A stretch of DNA of 34,078 bases from a bacterium (GCA_947502965.1 CANNCG010000001.1:1-34078); one strand, 5' to 3'. Numbered from the stretch's first letter, positions 9,582-31,226 are shown. Numbers and translations: made by a program. The notes: generated by a model from the letters alone, not told the origin.

Positions 9582-10106
9582 GTGGGCATTGTTGACCACG
9601 CTGCGCCTCCGCTTGTAGGCATTATTATGGGAAGTCGGTCTGACTTCCCCGTTATGCAAGACGCCTGTGCTATTTTAGCCGAGTTTAACATTCCCTTTGA
9701 AACAGCTGTTGTATCCGCACACCGCACACCAGAACGCATGGTGGCATATGCCAAAACAGCCTATTCCCGTGGCTTACGGGTCATTATTGCCGGTGCTGGC
9801 GGTGCTGCCCATTTACCGGGCATGGTAGCGTCATTAACCGCACTCCCCGTGATCGGCGTTCCTGTCAAAGCCGCACAATCTTTGGACGGCTGGGACTCCA
9901 TACTCTCTATTTTGCAAATGCCTGGTGGTGTCCCAGTCGCCACGGTTGCACTCAATAACGCCAAAAACGCAGGCCTGTTGGCATTGCAAATCTTGGCCAG
10001 TCATACCCCCGAGCTCTATGCCCGTTTAATGGACTTCAAATCCCATATGCGCGAAAAAATAGAAGGGGATGACAGTCCACTCACAGAGATCCCACCATCG
10101 CGATGA
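9582..10106 (+). CDS. purE: 5-(carboxyamino)imidazole ribonucleotide mutase
   Basis: [27 protein letters not shown] and [19 protein letters not shown] 9582 lies just after the grxD stop; the exact start is uncertain. Confidence 0.85.
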
Positions 10107-11314
10107 AATCGCTCCTTCTCAAATTTCTGCACAAGGTGGGAAAGCCTTCAGAAATTGAGCTTTTTTGGAACAAATTTCGCCAGATTCCCCGTATCCGTTT
10201 CGCACTTATTCGTATCGAATATGATGTATTGGAGGATTCAGTAGAAGAACTGGCCGAAAACATTTCCTATATGATTCATCTCAATATTTACCCCGTTTTA
10301 CTCCTAGATTTGAGCAGTAAGACCGATGATGAGGGACAACACCAACGTATCTCAGATGCACAAGCCAGCAAGCTTTTTCCCGTTTTAGCAGATCGTCTTA
10401 TCTCGGAAATGGCCAAACACAACTGTCCTGCGGAAGTGGTCTCAGAGGCTGCCGATGCGGAATCCAAGCGCCAACACCAATGGGACTTAGATATTGATAA
10501 AATACAAAGCACGTTAAACAAAGACCACACCCCCATTTTGTCCCCTTTTTCAAAACGCAAGAAACGACGGATTTATTTGGATCCCTCCGAACTATGCCGC
10601 CTCTATCTCACACGACTCACCCCCTTTAAATATATTCAGTTGATTGCAGAGGGGGGCATTTTAAACTGTCAGGAACGCATCATTCCTTTTCTCAATCTGT
10701 CACAGCGTAGTGAGTGGAAAGATGTCCATCCTGACATGAAACCGATAGTCAAAGAGGTTCGGCAACTCTTTAACACTGTGCCAGACTGTGCCGCCATTTT
10801 TACCTCGGCAGAACACCTTCTCCAAGAAATCTTTACCATCAAAGGTCGGGGCACCTATATCAAGATGCACCCCATTCTCTCTACCTCAAAAATGCGAGAT
10901 TTGGACATCACACGGCTTCGCGTTCTCTTGGAAGATGCCTTTTCCAAAAACCTTGTGGATGACTTTTTTAGCGAAAAATTTAAAATGATTTTCTATGAAA
11001 AAGATTATGAAGGTGTGGCCATCATTAAAAATCTCAAAGGCATTCCCTACCTCGACAAGCTTGCTGTCTCGCCGATTTCCGAAGGGACTGGTCTTGGGAA
11101 AAGCCTGTGGCTTGCCATGGCAAAGGCCTACCCCAAATTGATTTGGCGGGCCTCTCCCAAAAATCCTCTCAACAGCTTCTATTTACGTGAATGTCAGGGG
11201 TGTATGAAATTCCCAAAATGGCAAGTGTATTGGCGAAACTTAGACGAAGAAGAGATACTCCCCGCAGTGAAGCGGGTCCTAGAGATTCGCAGCACCATGA
11301 TCGAAATACGCTAA
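10103..11314 (+). CDS. N-acetylglutamate synthase-like protein (kinase-like N-domain plus C-terminal NAT/GNAT domain)
   Basis: The C-terminal [11 protein letters not shown]...[21 protein letters not shown] resembles the NAT domain of vertebrate-type NAGS/K. The N-terminus ([13 protein letters not shown]...[14 protein letters not shown]) resembles the NAGS start. The ATG overlaps the purE stop. Confidence 0.5.
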
Positions 11315-28541: not shown

Positions 28542-29054
28542 TTAGGTGTTCGGGGCTGATTTAATAGCCGTAATACGAAGTCCATAATTGTTATCCACAG
28601 CAACCACCTCACCTTGGGCGATAACCTGTCCATTTACAACCAAATCCAATGGTTCTCCCACCAGACGATCCAGCTCCACAATGGCACCATCAGACAGCTC
28701 AAATACATCTTTAAGAGACACCTGACAACGACCAAGCTCTACAGACACAGTAACAGGAATGCGGTTAAACACATCTTCCTCCAATTTTTGGCCACTCGTA
28801 TTGGCACTGGGCGTCAATACCGGAAATTCAACATCTGCCACTGCAGGGCGCGACGAAGACGCCAAGTCTGGAGACGGAGTGTCCCAAGAAAAGGAAGGGG
28901 CATCGGAGGCCGTTTCTTTAATCTTGGTCTCAGCCTTTGTTTTTGGATCGGCCTTGGGCTCACGACTGACAGGGAACCCATCTCCTCCAAAGGCATCTTT
29001 TAAAACAGGATCAATACCGTGTAAGGGATCATCAAATACTTTTTTCTTAGCCAT
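28542..29054 (-). CDS. fliN: Flagellar motor switch protein FliN (SpoA domain)
   Basis: C-terminal IPVTVSVELGRCQVSLKDVFELSDGAIVELDRLVGEPLDLVVNGQVIAQGEVVAVDNNYGLRITAI. ATG 29054 (MAKKKVF) overlaps the parA-like stop by 8 nt. Confidence 0.85.
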   Translation of the reverse strand: MAKKKVFDDPLHGIDPVLKDAFGGDGFPVSREPKADPKTKAETKIKETASDAPSFSWDTPSPDLASSSRPAVADVEFPVLTPSANTSGQKLEEDVFNRIPVTVSVELGRCQVSLKDVFELSDGAIVELDRLVGEPLDLVVNGQVIAQGEVVAVDNNYGLRITAIKSAPNT

Positions 29055-29787
29055 GCGAAAGCACCTCATTAATTAACCGTCGATAGTCATCAGCAGCACT
29101 AGAACGTGGGGAAAATTCAAAAATTGTTTGTCTATAACCTGGAGACTCAGACAGACCTACGCTTAGCCGAATGGGCGATGAAAGTTGCCCGGGGAATACA
29201 CGCTCAAGACTGTCCATGATATGGGCTGTTTTACGATTACGCTTATCATAAAACGTTGGTACAATTTTACAAATACGGATTTCCTTTCCGAGGATTTTAT
29301 TCACGATATCAATATTATTCAATAGCTGCTTAATTCCAACCAAAGACAAATATTCCATGGACACTGGCAATAAAAGTTCATCCGAAAAAATAAGAGAATT
29401 TTGATTCATCAAATTCATCGACGGCGCACAATCAACAATAATAAAATCATATCCCGTTAGAGATGCCAAGCGACGACTCAAGACATGCTCTCTGCCTTTT
29501 TCTGTTGCCAAGCGCATCTCTGCTGGGAAAAGTCGTTCATTTGCACAAATAATATCCAAATTGGGCCTAGCAGAAACGATGCATTCGGATACAGGTCTGA
29601 GGCCCATGACCACGTCATAAACCGTAACATCTGATTCCACACCCAAGTAATATCCGGCAGACCCTTGGGGATCTGTGTCCACGATCAAAACGCGTTTACC
29701 AAGAAGGGCCAGACCGTGGGCCATATTGACAACTGTACTGGTTTTACCGGTCCCACCTTTGTAATTAATGACTGCCAACTTACGCAT
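29047..29787 (-). CDS. ParA/Soj-type P-loop ATPase encoded between fliM and fliN
   Basis: Deviant Walker A AVINYKGGTGKTSTVVN, then LIVDTDPQGS and IIVDCAPS. There is no parB-like neighbour. Confidence 0.85.
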   Translation of the reverse strand: MRKLAVINYKGGTGKTSTVVNMAHGLALLGKRVLIVDTDPQGSAGYYLGVESDVTVYDVVMGLRPVSECIVSARPNLDIICANERLFPAEMRLATEKGREHVLSRRLASLTGYDFIIVDCAPSMNLMNQNSLIFSDELLLPVSMEYLSLVGIKQLLNNIDIVNKILGKEIRICKIVPTFYDKRNRKTAHIMDSLERVFPGQLSSPIRLSVGLSESPGYRQTIFEFSPRSSAADDYRRLINEVLSHG

Positions 29788-29801: not shown

Positions 29802-31226
29802 TTACAATTCATCGTCGAGGTCATCCCAAGAAAATTCACTATCATCGGCATCACCATGAACCTCTTCTTGCCCATGTGTTTCGGCATTTTCAGACGCTTC
29901 ATCTTCATCTTCTGAAAAATCAAAAAGCGCATCTGAAGAGTCTGTCTGCGCATCGTCGTGATCGTCTTCGTAATCCAATTCATCTTCAATTTCAAATTCA
30001 TGATCGTCTACCACTGGCTCATGTAAAAAATCTTCCTCAAGCAACGTTTCCTCCTCAGGTATGATAGACGGGGACGCCACAGCTACAGCCGCCGCCACAG
30101 CACCCAGCATGGCACCCGGAACAGCCACCGGCACAGACATTGGACGCACATACACTTCTTCTTTGAGAGAAGATAGGCTGTCTTCAATTTTAACAGAAGG
30201 GGCAACCTCTATGGGTTGTCGAGACGCAGGATTTTTCTCCACAACAGGCTTCTTCTCCGGCGGGAGACTCACACCCTTCTGCCCAAAACGGTGCAATTGA
30301 ATCGACAGTTTACGCGATGGCGAAACCCCAGGATATCCAAGCCATGGCTCAGAATCGGCCCCGAAATAAACCTTCAAGGGCTGATCTGTAACCGTATCCA
30401 AAACAATCACATCCCCCACACGAAGTTGGCGCAATTCCGACATTGTCAGAGAAGCAGTCCCAAGAGAAACAGAAACATTCACCTTCAAGGCATGAAGGGT
30501 TTGCTTAGAAAAATTAACCTGCTTCTCTTTTTTCGGCTTATTGATTTGCGACTGATGCACCAATTCCCGCAACAGTGTATTGGGGTACGCAATCACAAAC
30601 TTACGCAGTTCTTGTTGCCCAAAAACCAAATAAAAACCAAATTGGACATAGGCCTCTCGAAAAGAAATCTTAGGATTTCTACGATACGGCCCCACAGCAA
30701 AATCAATTACGGCGTGCGCAGGCGGAATACGCCACGTTTTAGCGACTTCGGGCAACAAAGCTTCGATTTGCGCCTTGAGTATACTCGTTTCCATGGACGT
30801 AAAGGAATCTGAATGCCCCACACTCCCAGATCCGCCAACCAAACGATTGATCATCATATCTGCCAAATCCCAATCAAAAAGCAAATTAATTTTATGCCCC
30901 GCAGAAAAAACGACATCGGCCTGGACAACTTTTTCTTTCGCATTCTCTAAAAATTCTTTATAGCTCATTTGTGTGGCAAGGACAGTATGCAGTTCAACCT
31001 TAATGTCCATATCCGTAGAGAATTTCACACAAAGACGTTCTGCAAGACGGTAATGCAAATAATGCAAAAAACGCAATTGCTCACGTGTTAAACTGTCAAA
31101 ATTACTGGTACGAATCGGGTGGATCTCAATAGCATCTACGGACTCCCGTTGATGCACCGTTGTCCAATCCCCAATGGCAGGAGCAAGTTTAATCGTTCTA
31201 TGAAACTTTGGGCTATACTTTTGCAC
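29802..31226 (-). CDS. fliM: Flagellar motor switch protein FliM with atypical termini
   Basis: IRTSNFDSLTREQLRFLHYLHYRLAERL, INRLVGGSGS and a C-terminal SpoA domain (SLTMSELRQLRVGDVIVLD...) match FliM. There is no LSQxEIDxLL motif in residues 1-37. A 159-aa extension follows residue ~315. Confidence 0.85.
   Translation of the reverse strand: MQKYSPKFHRTIKLAPAIGDWTTVHQRESVDAIEIHPIRTSNFDSLTREQLRFLHYLHYRLAERLCVKFSTDMDIKVELHTVLATQMSYKEFLENAKEKVVQADVVFSAGHKINLLFDWDLADMMINRLVGGSGSVGHSDSFTSMETSILKAQIEALLPEVAKTWRIPPAHAVIDFAVGPYRRNPKISFREAYVQFGFYLVFGQQELRKFVIAYPNTLLRELVHQSQINKPKKEKQVNFSKQTLHALKVNVSVSLGTASLTMSELRQLRVGDVIVLDTVTDQPLKVYFGADSEPWLGYPGVSPSRKLSIQLHRFGQKGVSLPPEKKPVVEKNPASRQPIEVAPSVKIEDSLSSLKEEVYVRPMSVPVAVPGAMLGAVAAAVAVASPSIIPEEETLLEEDFLHEPVVDDHEFEIEDELDYEDDHDDAQTDSSDALFDFSEDEDEASENAETHGQEEVHGDADDSEFSWDDLDDEL

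What the first reader, a model, noticed from the sequence alone, without database searches (positions are those of the whole stretch)
29805..30281. 159-aa C-terminal extension on FliM: Ala/Val hydrophobic stretch followed by a hyper-acidic tail
After the SpoA domain (ending near residue 315) the ORF continues uninterrupted. It first has a Pro/Lys-rich linker. A 26-residue hydrophobic run follows (SVPVAVPGAMLGAVAAAVAVASPSII, 30063-30140). The last 86 residues (29805-30062) contain 41 D/E by my count and no K or R (…DDHEFEIEDELDYEDDHDDAQTDSSDALFDFSEDEDEASENAE…SEFSWDDLDDEL). Canonical FliM ends shortly after the SpoA domain. A TM-like segment on a cytoplasmic C-ring protein is unexpected. The acidic tail could be a docking site for a basic partner (the ParA-like ATPase or export chaperones) or an electrostatic element.
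Basis: seen in the sequence. Interest (0 to 1): 0.65.

Follow-up and report, generated by a model that had tools for sequence, protein, structure and literature searches.

The report
Acidic docking tail on FliM
The switch protein FliM of these uncultured marine Margulisbacteria carries a real, conserved, floppy, strongly negatively charged tail that ends in a near-invariant short peptide (D-F-S-W-D-D-L-D). The tail probably acts as a tether that recruits a partner, most likely the ParA-type ATPase encoded next door, to the base of an unusual flagellum-like machine that has no filament protein and no chemotaxis genes.

Summary
FliM (29802-31226, minus strand, 474 aa) continues 159 residues past its SpoA domain. 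The last 86 residues hold 41 D/E and no K/R.

It is not a fusion artefact. Eight independent assemblies give 473-475 aa, and about 137 of 146 non-redundant relatives carry an acidic tail of at least 60 aa.

The Ala/Val run is not a membrane anchor. It is genus-specific, scores as non-inserting, and AlphaFold2 gives it no helix.

It is as conserved as the FliM core, even at 23% identity, while the linker varies freely. That is a disordered tether ending in a short linear motif.

The strict motif co-occurs with the ParA-type ATPase between fliM and fliN: 34/35 loci with ParA against 2/35 without.

Tail-bearing FliM is confined to Margulisbacteria/Saganbacteria. It has replaced the CheY-docking N-terminus, and it sits in genomes lacking flagellin and CheW.

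Best reading (about 0.4): the tail is a docking arm for ParA. The partner is inferred, not shown.

The parts
29802..31226 (-). fliM ORF, 474 aa plus stop (GTG start; ends TAA TAA)
   Evidence: Pfam FliM scores 39.4 bits and FliMN_C 45.3 bits, both above their cut-offs. The NCBIfam FliM equivalog scores only 72.7 against a cut-off of 219.6, so this is a divergent FliM.
31158..31190 (-). N-terminal motif K-L-A-P-A-I-G-D-W-T-T (residues 13-23). It stands where canonical FliM has the LSQxEIDALL CheY-P docking peptide.
   Evidence: L14, P16, A17, G19, D20, W21 and T22 are invariant in 37 sequences. The pattern [IL][KR]LxPA[IV]GDW retrieves only Margulisbacteria/Saganbacteria from 185,579 species genomes.
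30537..31097 (-). FliM middle (CheC-like) domain, residues 44-230, including the GGXG-type loop LVGGSGS (129-135)
   Evidence: Pfam. PDB FliM middle-domain hits have E = 3e-5. pLDDT is 80-93. G131, G132 and G134 are conserved.
30282..30500 (-). SpoA (FliMN_C) domain, residues 243-315
30141..30281 (-). Proximal linker, residues 316-362. It is Pro/Lys/Val-rich and poorly conserved.
   Evidence: Mean pairwise identity is 0.31 within the genus, against 0.82 for the core. pLDDT is below 45.
30063..30140 (-). Ala/Val/Gly/Pro hydrophobic run, residues 363-388. It is genus-specific and not a predicted TM helix.
29841..30062 (-). Polyanionic disordered segment, residues 389-462. It contains genus-conserved acidic-aromatic blocks (DDHEFEIEDELDYEDD, ALFDFSED).
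29805..29840 (-). Terminal short linear motif, residues 463-474 (DDSEFSWDDLDDEL). The core is F465-S466-W467-D468-D469-L470.
   Evidence: Identity is 0.98 within the genus. F, S, W and L are at least 90% conserved and D468 is invariant in 37 sequences. In the logo from 32 class sequences, W and D+1 are 32/32 and F is 30/32. AlphaFold2 puts a short helix on W-D-D-L-D in two models.
29047..29787 (-). ParA/Soj-type ATPase gene. It starts 14 nt after the fliM stop codon, overlaps fliN, and is the candidate partner of the tail.
   Evidence: Pfam AAA_31, 3e-45. Synteny is conserved in 35 loci. Net charge is +2 to +16 in 28/31 orthologues, against -6 for the chromosomal Soj of G003.
28989..29033 (-). 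FliN N-terminal peptide DDPLHGIDPVLKDAF (residues 13-27). It is EIDAL-like and is a second candidate ParA docking site on the same ring.
   Evidence: It is conserved as DPLxxIDPx[ML]ExAF across the class. It is absent from the ~96-aa FliN of the ParA-less classes.

Best explanation
The 159-residue extension is a conserved, intrinsically disordered, polyanionic tether. It hangs from the SpoA domain at the cytoplasmic rim of the C ring and ends in a short linear docking motif, D-[DE]-F-S-W-D-D-L-[DE].

Each FliM copy in the ring would present one such arm. The arms together would form a multivalent acidic fringe whose tips capture a partner by fly-casting and concentrate it at the base of the machine.

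The most likely partner is the positively charged ParA/Soj-type ATPase encoded immediately downstream. It would be held at the ring by the FliM tip, and probably also by the EIDAL-like peptide at the FliN N-terminus. This is analogous to the MinD-type ATPase FlhG docking on EIDAL peptides of FliM or FliY, and to ParA1, ParC and FlhG docking on the acidic modules of HubP.

Shown here: the tail's existence, its disorder, the conservation pattern (variable linker, near-invariant tip), the phylogenetic distribution, and the co-occurrence of the strict motif with ParA.

Inferred: that the tip is a binding site, and that ParA is what it binds.

My odds: tether plus linear motif about 0.85. ParA as the partner about 0.4.
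For: 1. Conservation pattern typical of a tethered motif.
- Within the genus, identity is 0.31 in the linker and 0.98 in the last 12 residues, against 0.82 in the core.
- In 37 class-level sequences F465, S466, W467 and L470 are at least 90% conserved and D468 is invariant. Tail length ranges from 89 to 321 aa.
- The motif survives at 23% FliM identity.

2. Disorder. Two AlphaFold2 models give pLDDT below 50 for the whole tail. A short helix sits on W-D-D-L-D.

3. Breadth. Of 146 non-redundant full-length relatives, 137 have an acidic tail of at least 60 aa, and 91 have Phi-x-W-[DE] in the last 25 residues.

4. Link to ParA.
- The strict motif Phi-x-W-D-x-Phi is present in 34/35 loci where parA lies between fliM and fliN, and in 2/35 without it (Fisher 4e-16, not corrected for phylogeny).
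- Inside the class there were four independent ParA losses. Two of them have a decayed or lost motif, against 1/35 where ParA is kept (p = 0.023).
- Variants outside the class lack the hydrophobic +3 residue: FTWDID, FVWEEE, FSWDED, FSWDIN, LSWDDE.

5. Charge complement. The flagellar ParA orthologues are net positive, while the chromosomal Soj is -6.

6. Gene layout. parA starts 14 nt after the fliM stop and overlaps fliN.

7. Precedents. HubP partners bind its highly acidic modules (PMC8789113). FlhG binds the FliM N-terminus or FliY (PMC12826062).

8. Sequence resemblance. The motif S-W-D-D-L-D shares the S-x-x-[DE]-[IL]-D pattern of S-Q-x-E-I-D in EIDAL. This is my reading of the sequence.
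Against: - No binding was tested.
- Acidic tails, and in six loci a looser F-x-W-[DE] tip, occur in other classes of the phylum that have no ParA. The tail therefore predates ParA and must have, or have had, another role.
- Two ParA-less genomes (G013, G015) keep an intact motif.
- One locus with ParA (L085) lacks the tryptophan.
- The FliN N-terminal EIDAL-like peptide also co-occurs with ParA and is the more conventional docking site.
- Known partner peptides that activate ParA/MinD ATPases are basic, not acidic (general knowledge).
- The class-level correlation is largely one phylogenetic event.
Confidence: 0.4

Rival explanations
1. The tail is a recruitment arm for the export side of the machine. 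The tip would bind the FliH-FliI ATPase complex, an export chaperone or a substrate, so that the C ring works as a sorting platform with built-in 'fishing lines'. ParA would be unrelated to the tail.
For: - Acidic tails exist phylum-wide without ParA.
- The machine lacks flagellin and chemotaxis genes, so export or sorting may be the ring's main task.
- The FliH N-terminus in this clade is hydrophobic-basic (MAILKR...), which is complementary in charge.
- In Salmonella, the FliH N-terminal tryptophans dock on FliN (general knowledge; cited in the references of PMC6946799).
Against: - There is no co-variation evidence.
- FliH is present in all 26 genomes tested whatever the motif state.
- The hydrophobic +3 position tracks ParA, not FliH.
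- No other protein in the own genome carries a similar acidic F-x-W-D-D-L end that would compete for one receptor.
Confidence: 0.2
2. The tail works mainly by bulk physics. It would be a polyanionic entropic or electrostatic brush on the cytoplasmic face of the ring. It would repel nucleoid and ribosomes, keep subunits soluble or spaced, or set ring stoichiometry, with no specific partner.
For: - The feature that is universal across the phylum is charge, not sequence. The distal third averages 44-50% D/E and 3-5% K/R, with very variable length.
- These are small cells with 1-2.5 Mb genomes.
Against: - A brush does not explain a tip that is more conserved than the protein core and always sits within about 8 residues of the end.
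- It also does not explain the recurring acidic-aromatic clusters, seen in 112/137 tails.
Confidence: 0.15
3. The tip folds back onto the ring itself, onto the FliM/FliN SpoA hydrophobic patch or the FliM N-terminal GDW motif. It would act as an auto-inhibitory or ring-stabilising latch.
For: - The invariant N-terminal PAIGDWT motif and the acidic tail always occur together.
- Trp/Phe plus acidic residues resemble peptides that bind SpoA patches (general knowledge).
Against: - Two AlphaFold2 monomer models do not dock the tip (pLDDT 47-58).
- FliH of this clade has no Trp-based N-terminus to be mimicked.
- The FliN N-terminal linker is not consistently basic.
Confidence: 0.1
4. One reading: the Ala/Val run is a membrane-spanning or membrane-dipping segment, so that the acidic tail lies at or beyond the membrane.
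For: The Kyte-Doolittle 19-residue mean is 2.08. The run is moderately conserved within the genus, at 0.59.
Against: - The Hessa scale gives +3.2 kcal/mol.
- There is no helix, and pLDDT is 31-39.
- Only 2/63 tails have such a window.
- Strains differ by indels inside it.
- The SpoA domain sits at the membrane-distal rim of the C ring (general knowledge).
Confidence: 0.03
5. The tip is a relocated CheY-P docking peptide.
For: The canonical N-terminal LSQxEIDALL is missing. The tip has an S-x-x-[DE]-[IL]-D pattern.
Against: CheW/CheA domains are absent from 39/41 related genomes, including 0/18 high-quality ones. Only about 7 of 91 tail-FliM genomes in the phylum have them.
Confidence: 0.03

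Closest known systems
Canonical FliM (E. coli/Salmonella, Thermotoga maritima; Pfam PF02154 + PF01052)
   Same: It has the CheC-like middle domain with a GGXG-type loop and a C-terminal SpoA domain. It sits in the operon before fliN-fliO-fliP.
   Different: It has no N-terminal LSQxEIDALL and carries an invariant KLxPAIGDWTT instead. It adds 159 disordered acidic residues and a terminal F-S-W-D-D-L motif. It scores far below NCBI's FliM equivalog cut-off. Canonical FliMs in the same phylum are 320-371 aa and have no tail.
EIDAL peptide of FliM/FliY as docking site for CheY-P and the MinD-type ATPase FlhG (PMC12826062, PMC6946799)
   Same: Both are short acidic-hydrophobic, helix-forming peptides on a flexible arm of a C-ring protein. 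Both dock a deviant-Walker-A ATPase. The S-x-x-[DE]-[IL]-D pattern is shared.
   Different: This peptide is at the C-terminus, not the N-terminus. It has a tryptophan core and lacks the A-L-L half. The ATPase is Soj/ParA-type (NYKGGTGKT), not FlhG, and no FlhF is present. No binding has been shown.
HubP/FimV polar landmark proteins (PMC8789113, PMC12918733)
   Same: Both have a large, highly acidic D/E-rich cytoplasmic region that serves as a docking platform for ParA-like ATPases (ParA1, ParC, FlhG).
   Different: HubP is a LysM-TM-repeat-TPR membrane protein. Here the acidic region is an appendage of the C-ring subunit itself. There is no homology.
Tethered C-terminal peptides: chemoreceptor NWETF pentapeptide (binds CheR/CheB), SSB C-terminal DDDIPF tip, FtsZ C-terminal linker plus conserved peptide (general knowledge, not tested here)
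   Same: The architecture matches: a variable disordered linker, then a short conserved acidic/aromatic tip that recruits partners to a large assembly.
   Different: The proteins and partners are unrelated. The tail here is much more acidic and is displayed in many copies on a ring.
Other acidic or multi-motif arms on switch proteins noted in this scan (alphaproteobacterial FliM N-terminal acidic tails with a conserved Trp motif; planctomycete FliN with five EIDAL copies). These are AI notes and unchecked.
   Same: They are disordered acidic arms with short conserved motifs on C-ring proteins.
   Different: The terminus, the motif and the lineage all differ. Those systems keep CheY docking.

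Membership tests
FliM (flagellar switch protein) | CheC-like middle domain (PF02154) | tested here: met
   39.4 bits against a cut-off of 27, residues 44-166. PDB FliM middle domains hit at E = 3e-5.
FliM (flagellar switch protein) | C-terminal SpoA / FliMN_C domain | tested here: met
   45.3 bits against a cut-off of 23.8, residues 243-289.
FliM (flagellar switch protein) | N-terminal LSQxEIDALL CheY-P docking peptide | tested here: not met
   The N-terminus is MQKYSPKFHRTIKLAPAIGDWTT. No EIDAL-like match was found in the first 40 residues of any tail-bearing relative. The canonical relatives P0038, P0179 and P0180 do have it.
FliM (flagellar switch protein) | NCBIfam equivalog score (TIGR01397) | tested here: not met
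   72.7 bits against a cut-off of 219.6. This is a divergent subfamily.
FliM (flagellar switch protein) | Position in a flagellar export operon next to fliN/fliO/fliP | tested here: met
Integral or anchored membrane protein | A hydrophobic helix predicted to insert, conserved among relatives | tested here: not met
   Hessa sum is +3.2 kcal/mol. AlphaFold2 gives no helix. Only 2/63 tails have KD19 above 1.6.
Disordered tether with C-terminal short linear motif | Linker variable in length and sequence, predicted disordered | tested here: met
   Tails are 89-321 aa. Linker identity is 0.31. pLDDT is below 50.
Disordered tether with C-terminal short linear motif | Short terminal peptide conserved above background | tested here: met
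   Identity is 0.98 in the last 12 residues, against 0.82 in the core. See also the logo.
Disordered tether with C-terminal short linear motif | A demonstrated binding partner | not testable with these tools
   Only single-chain structure prediction is available, and there is no experiment.
FlhG/ParA docking peptide (EIDAL type) | Consensus [LS]-S-Q-x-E-I-D-A-L-L | tested here: inconclusive
   The tip shares S-x-x-[DE]-[IL]-D but lacks A-L-L. The FliN N-terminus D-I-D-P-[IV]-[ML] is a closer match.
FlhG/ParA docking peptide (EIDAL type) | Co-occurrence with a deviant-Walker-A ATPase in the flagellar locus | tested here: met
   34/35 against 2/35.
HubP/FimV-like acidic hub | LysM domain, TM helix, C-terminal TPR/FimV domain | tested here: not met
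   Pfam finds only FliM and FliMN_C.

The most novel reading that the evidence does not exclude
The strict F-S-W-D-D-L tip, together with the EIDAL-like peptide on FliN, forms a previously undescribed two-site receptor. This receptor captures a dedicated, positively charged ParA-type ATPase onto the C ring of a filament-less, chemotaxis-less flagellum-derived machine. The roughly 40-charge polyanionic arm would act as a DNA mimic that pulls ParA-ATP off the nucleoid. That would make a new kind of ParA cargo adaptor, built into the cargo itself and acidic where known adaptors are basic.
Probability: 0.2. Interest if true: 0.8.

Novelty: new variant of a known kind. Interest (0 to 1): 0.62.

Why it matters
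FliM is one of the best-studied proteins of the bacterial flagellum. I found no paper describing a conserved C-terminal disordered arm with its own docking motif.

The arm marks a whole lineage of flagellum-derived machines in Margulisbacteria/Saganbacteria, the sister groups of Cyanobacteria. These machines have lost flagellin, chemotaxis and the CheY-docking peptide. They keep the rod, the rings, the export gate and the C ring.

If the tip docks the adjacent ParA ATPase, three things would follow:
- It would be a new, acidic type of ParA adaptor.
- It would give a defined peptide-protein pair that can be tested in vitro without culturing the organism.
- It would give a handle on what this filament-less apparatus does.

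Tried and rejected
- FliH mimicry. FliH N-termini in 10 relatives and in the own genome read MA(I/V)(I/L)K(R/K) with no tryptophan. There is no sequence support.
- FliN 'FSWD' as a second copy of the motif. It occurs only in the genus (L001, L002).
- Charge pairing between the FliM tail and a basic FliN linker. FliN N-extensions are net negative in most lineages.
- CheY docking. There is no CheW/CheA.
- TM segment.
- Fusion artefact.
- Apparent exception P0033 (447 aa, no motif). The rest of the tail, ending DDDDDFSWDDLDDEDEE, lies in another frame just downstream in a polished long-read contig. This is a frameshift in that assembly, not a true loss. L006/G024 and L085 have no hidden motif in any frame.
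- Other proteins with the same acidic tip in the own, 55% complete genome. None were found.
- AlphaFold2 on a relative with a shorter tail (P0016), to look for self-docking. None was seen.
- Literature searches on Margulisbacteria/Saganbacteria flagella and on FliM C-terminal extensions. Nothing relevant was found.

Full report
**What is there.**
The minus-strand ORF 29802-31226 encodes a 474-aa protein. Pfam finds a FliM middle domain at residues 44-166 and a SpoA/FliMN_C domain at 243-289. It lies in a flagellar-type export operon with this order: 221-aa ORF, 241-aa ORF, fliM, ParA-type ATPase, fliN, fliO, fliP, 346-aa ORF, fliR, flhB, flhA, sigma factor.

The last 86 residues contain 21 D and 20 E and no K or R, for a net charge of -41. 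Given the composition of the core, that is far beyond chance (P = 1e-18).

**It is not an artefact.**
The 90%-identity cluster of this protein has eight members of 473-475 aa from ENA, JGI, NCBI and Logan assemblies. Their acidic tails are identical. The only differences are 1-2 residue indels in the Ala run and one extra ED. The gene ends in TAA TAA, and the ATG of parA follows 11 nt later. There is no DNA tandem repeat of note.

**The tail across relatives.**
- Homologues of 420-640 aa occur in 36 of 41 related genomes.
- Record titles identify the group as Candidatus Marinamargulisbacteria.
- In a library of 1.84 billion representative proteins, 146 non-redundant full-length relatives were recovered. 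Of these, 137 carry an acidic tail of at least 60 aa.
- Within the genus, mean pairwise identity is 0.82 in the core, 0.31 in the proximal linker, 0.59 in the Ala/Val run, 0.56 in the acidic stretch and 0.98 in the last 12 residues.
- Across 37 class-level sequences, F465, S466, W467 and L470 are at least 90% conserved and D468 is invariant, although the tails cannot otherwise be aligned.
- A logo from 32 unique class sequences reads D-[DE]-F-S-W-D-D-L-[DE]-[DE]. W and the following D are 32/32 and F is 30/32. The motif is nearly always 1-8 residues from the end.
- It persists in FliMs only 23-27% identical to the query.
- Two AlphaFold2 runs, on the window's protein and on a relative with a 103-aa tail, give pLDDT below 50 for the whole tail and a short helix on W-D-D-L-D. 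They give no sign that the tip docks on the protein's own domains.

This is the signature of a disordered tether that ends in a short linear motif.

**The Ala/Val run.**
Its Kyte-Doolittle score is TM-like (2.08). Three results argue against a membrane segment:
- The Hessa biological scale gives +3.2 kcal/mol.
- AlphaFold2 gives coil.
- Only 2 of 63 tails contain any such window.

What recurs instead is a Pro/Ala/Val-enriched proximal third and an acidic distal third. I reject the membrane-segment reading.

**Context 1: ParA.**
A Soj/ParA-type ATPase (NYKGGTGKT Walker A) lies between fliM and fliN in 30 of 34 class loci. It also does so in five further metagenomic loci. It is 44-67% identical across the class, which is more conserved than FliM.

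Four class genomes have lost it and keep only the chromosomal Soj, at 33-36% identity. Of these four, two keep the motif (G013, G015), one has a decayed motif (G016, DFKWDED) and one has none (G024).

In the other classes of the phylum (Saganbacteria/WOR-1 and others) FliM is also tail-bearing, but there is no ParA. There the tip is either repeated [DE][DE]F-type clusters or a looser F-x-W-[DE] that lacks the hydrophobic +3 residue.

Counts for the strict motif are 34/35 loci with ParA and 2/35 without (4e-16). Inside the class the counts are 34/35 against 2/4 (p = 0.023). Neither test is corrected for phylogeny.

The flagellar ParA orthologues are net positive (+2 to +16 in 28/31). The chromosomal Soj of G003 is -6.

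**Context 2: what has been lost.**
- Tail-bearing FliMs have an invariant N-terminal KLxPAIGDWTT in place of LSQxEIDALL. A pattern search of 185,579 species genomes finds this N-terminus only in Margulisbacteria/Saganbacteria records, plus one MAG labelled Actinomycetota.
- Thirteen genomes of the phylum (G057-G069) have canonical FliM instead: 320-371 aa, LTQEEIDALL, no tail. All thirteen have CheW/CheA and flagellin.
- Of about 91 genomes with tail-FliM, only 7 have a CheW domain and 1 has flagellin.
- Rod, L/P-ring, MS-ring, FliH/FliI and export-gate genes are present.

The tail therefore belongs to a flagellum-derived machine without a filament protein and without chemotaxis.

**Mechanism.**
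I read the extension as a multivalent docking arm on the cytoplasmic rim of the C ring.

The partner most consistent with the data is the adjacent ParA-type ATPase. Published precedent exists for both elements. MinD-type FlhG docks on the flexible EIDAL peptide of FliM or FliY (PMC12826062; PMC6946799). ParA1, ParC/ParP and FlhG dock on the highly acidic modules of HubP (PMC8789113). The tip shares S-x-x-[DE]-[IL]-D with EIDAL.

A caveat is that FliN in this class has its own, better EIDAL-like N-terminal peptide (DPLxxIDPx[ML]ExAF). That peptide also tracks ParA, so the FliM tip may be a second site or may serve another partner.

Acidic tails also predate ParA in the phylum. The generic polyanionic arm must therefore have an older function, such as an electrostatic brush or capture of export factors.

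My odds:
- Tether with linear motif: 0.85.
- ParA as partner: 0.4.
- Export-side partner: 0.2.
- Brush only: 0.15.
- Self-latch: 0.1.
- TM segment or CheY docking: about 0.03 each.

**Novelty.**
Pfam, NCBIfam and PDB have nothing for the tail. No paper I could find describes it. It is a new variant of a known protein kind, sitting in an undescribed reduced flagellar-type apparatus.

Noticed in passing
phylum-wide; own genome G000 contigs C1, C9, C57: There is a clean split in the phylum. Thirteen genomes with canonical FliM have flagellin and CheW. About 91 genomes with tail-FliM have rod, L/P-ring, MS-ring, FliH/I and export-gate genes, but no Flagellin_N (1 exception) and mostly no CheW. No hook-sized FlgE was seen. 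This is a filament-less, chemotaxis-less flagellum-derived apparatus.
   Followed up: partly
G000 C9:569-1246(-) and C9:12245-13738(-); G003 C21 (L076, L110): The FliG next to FliF is only 225-240 aa (FliG_N + FliG_M, no FliG_C). A separate protein of about 495 aa has N-terminal hydrophobic segments, a Gly/Ser linker and a C-terminal FliG_C domain (57 bits). In G003 it is followed by MotA (258 aa) and a 606-aa MotB (plug + OmpA). The FliG_C-like/MotB adjacency recurs in more than 25 genomes of the class.
   Followed up: partly
e.g. G016 C61:29860-34253, G008 C22:11063-14450, G043 C69, G052 C47, G034 C47: Several genomes of the class carry a second module: a FliG-like protein (350-385 aa), a MotB, and a FliM-middle-domain-like protein of about 180 aa.
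   Followed up: no
window 28989-29033 (-), FliN residues 13-27: FliN of the class has a conserved N-terminal peptide MAKKKxFDDPLxxIDPx[ML]ExAFS that resembles EIDAL, although the genomes lack chemotaxis genes. FliN in the ParA-less classes is about 96 aa and lacks it. G016, which lost ParA, also lacks it.
   Followed up: partly
window 28881-28892 (-), FliN residues 60-63: The FliN linker contains F-S-W-D (SFSWDTPSPDL), echoing the FliM tip. It occurs only in this genus (L001, L002).
   Followed up: yes
L111:3501-5100: In a polished long-read contig of 1.9 Mb, fliM is called as 447 aa without the motif. The rest of the tail (...DDDDDFSWDDLDDEDEE) lies in another frame and overlaps the end. This is probably a frameshift error in a GAT/GAA-rich stretch.
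   Followed up: yes
L085 (PBBE01000058.1): A MAG labelled Actinomycetota carries the Marinamargulisbacteria-type fliM-parA-fliN locus. It is probably mislabelled or mis-binned. Its FliM tip lacks the tryptophan (DDDDFEDLEDE).
   Followed up: no
window 29047-29787 (-): The flagellar ParA orthologues are net positive (+2 to +16 in 28/31), unlike the chromosomal Soj of G003 (-6). NCBIfam places the window's ParA below every equivalog cut-off.
   Followed up: partly
G000 C9:9644-10012(-) and 10009-11295(-): A stand-alone 122-aa FlhB-C-terminal-domain protein and a 428-aa protein with a weak FliK (Flg_hook) match lie in the rod-gene cluster.
   Followed up: no
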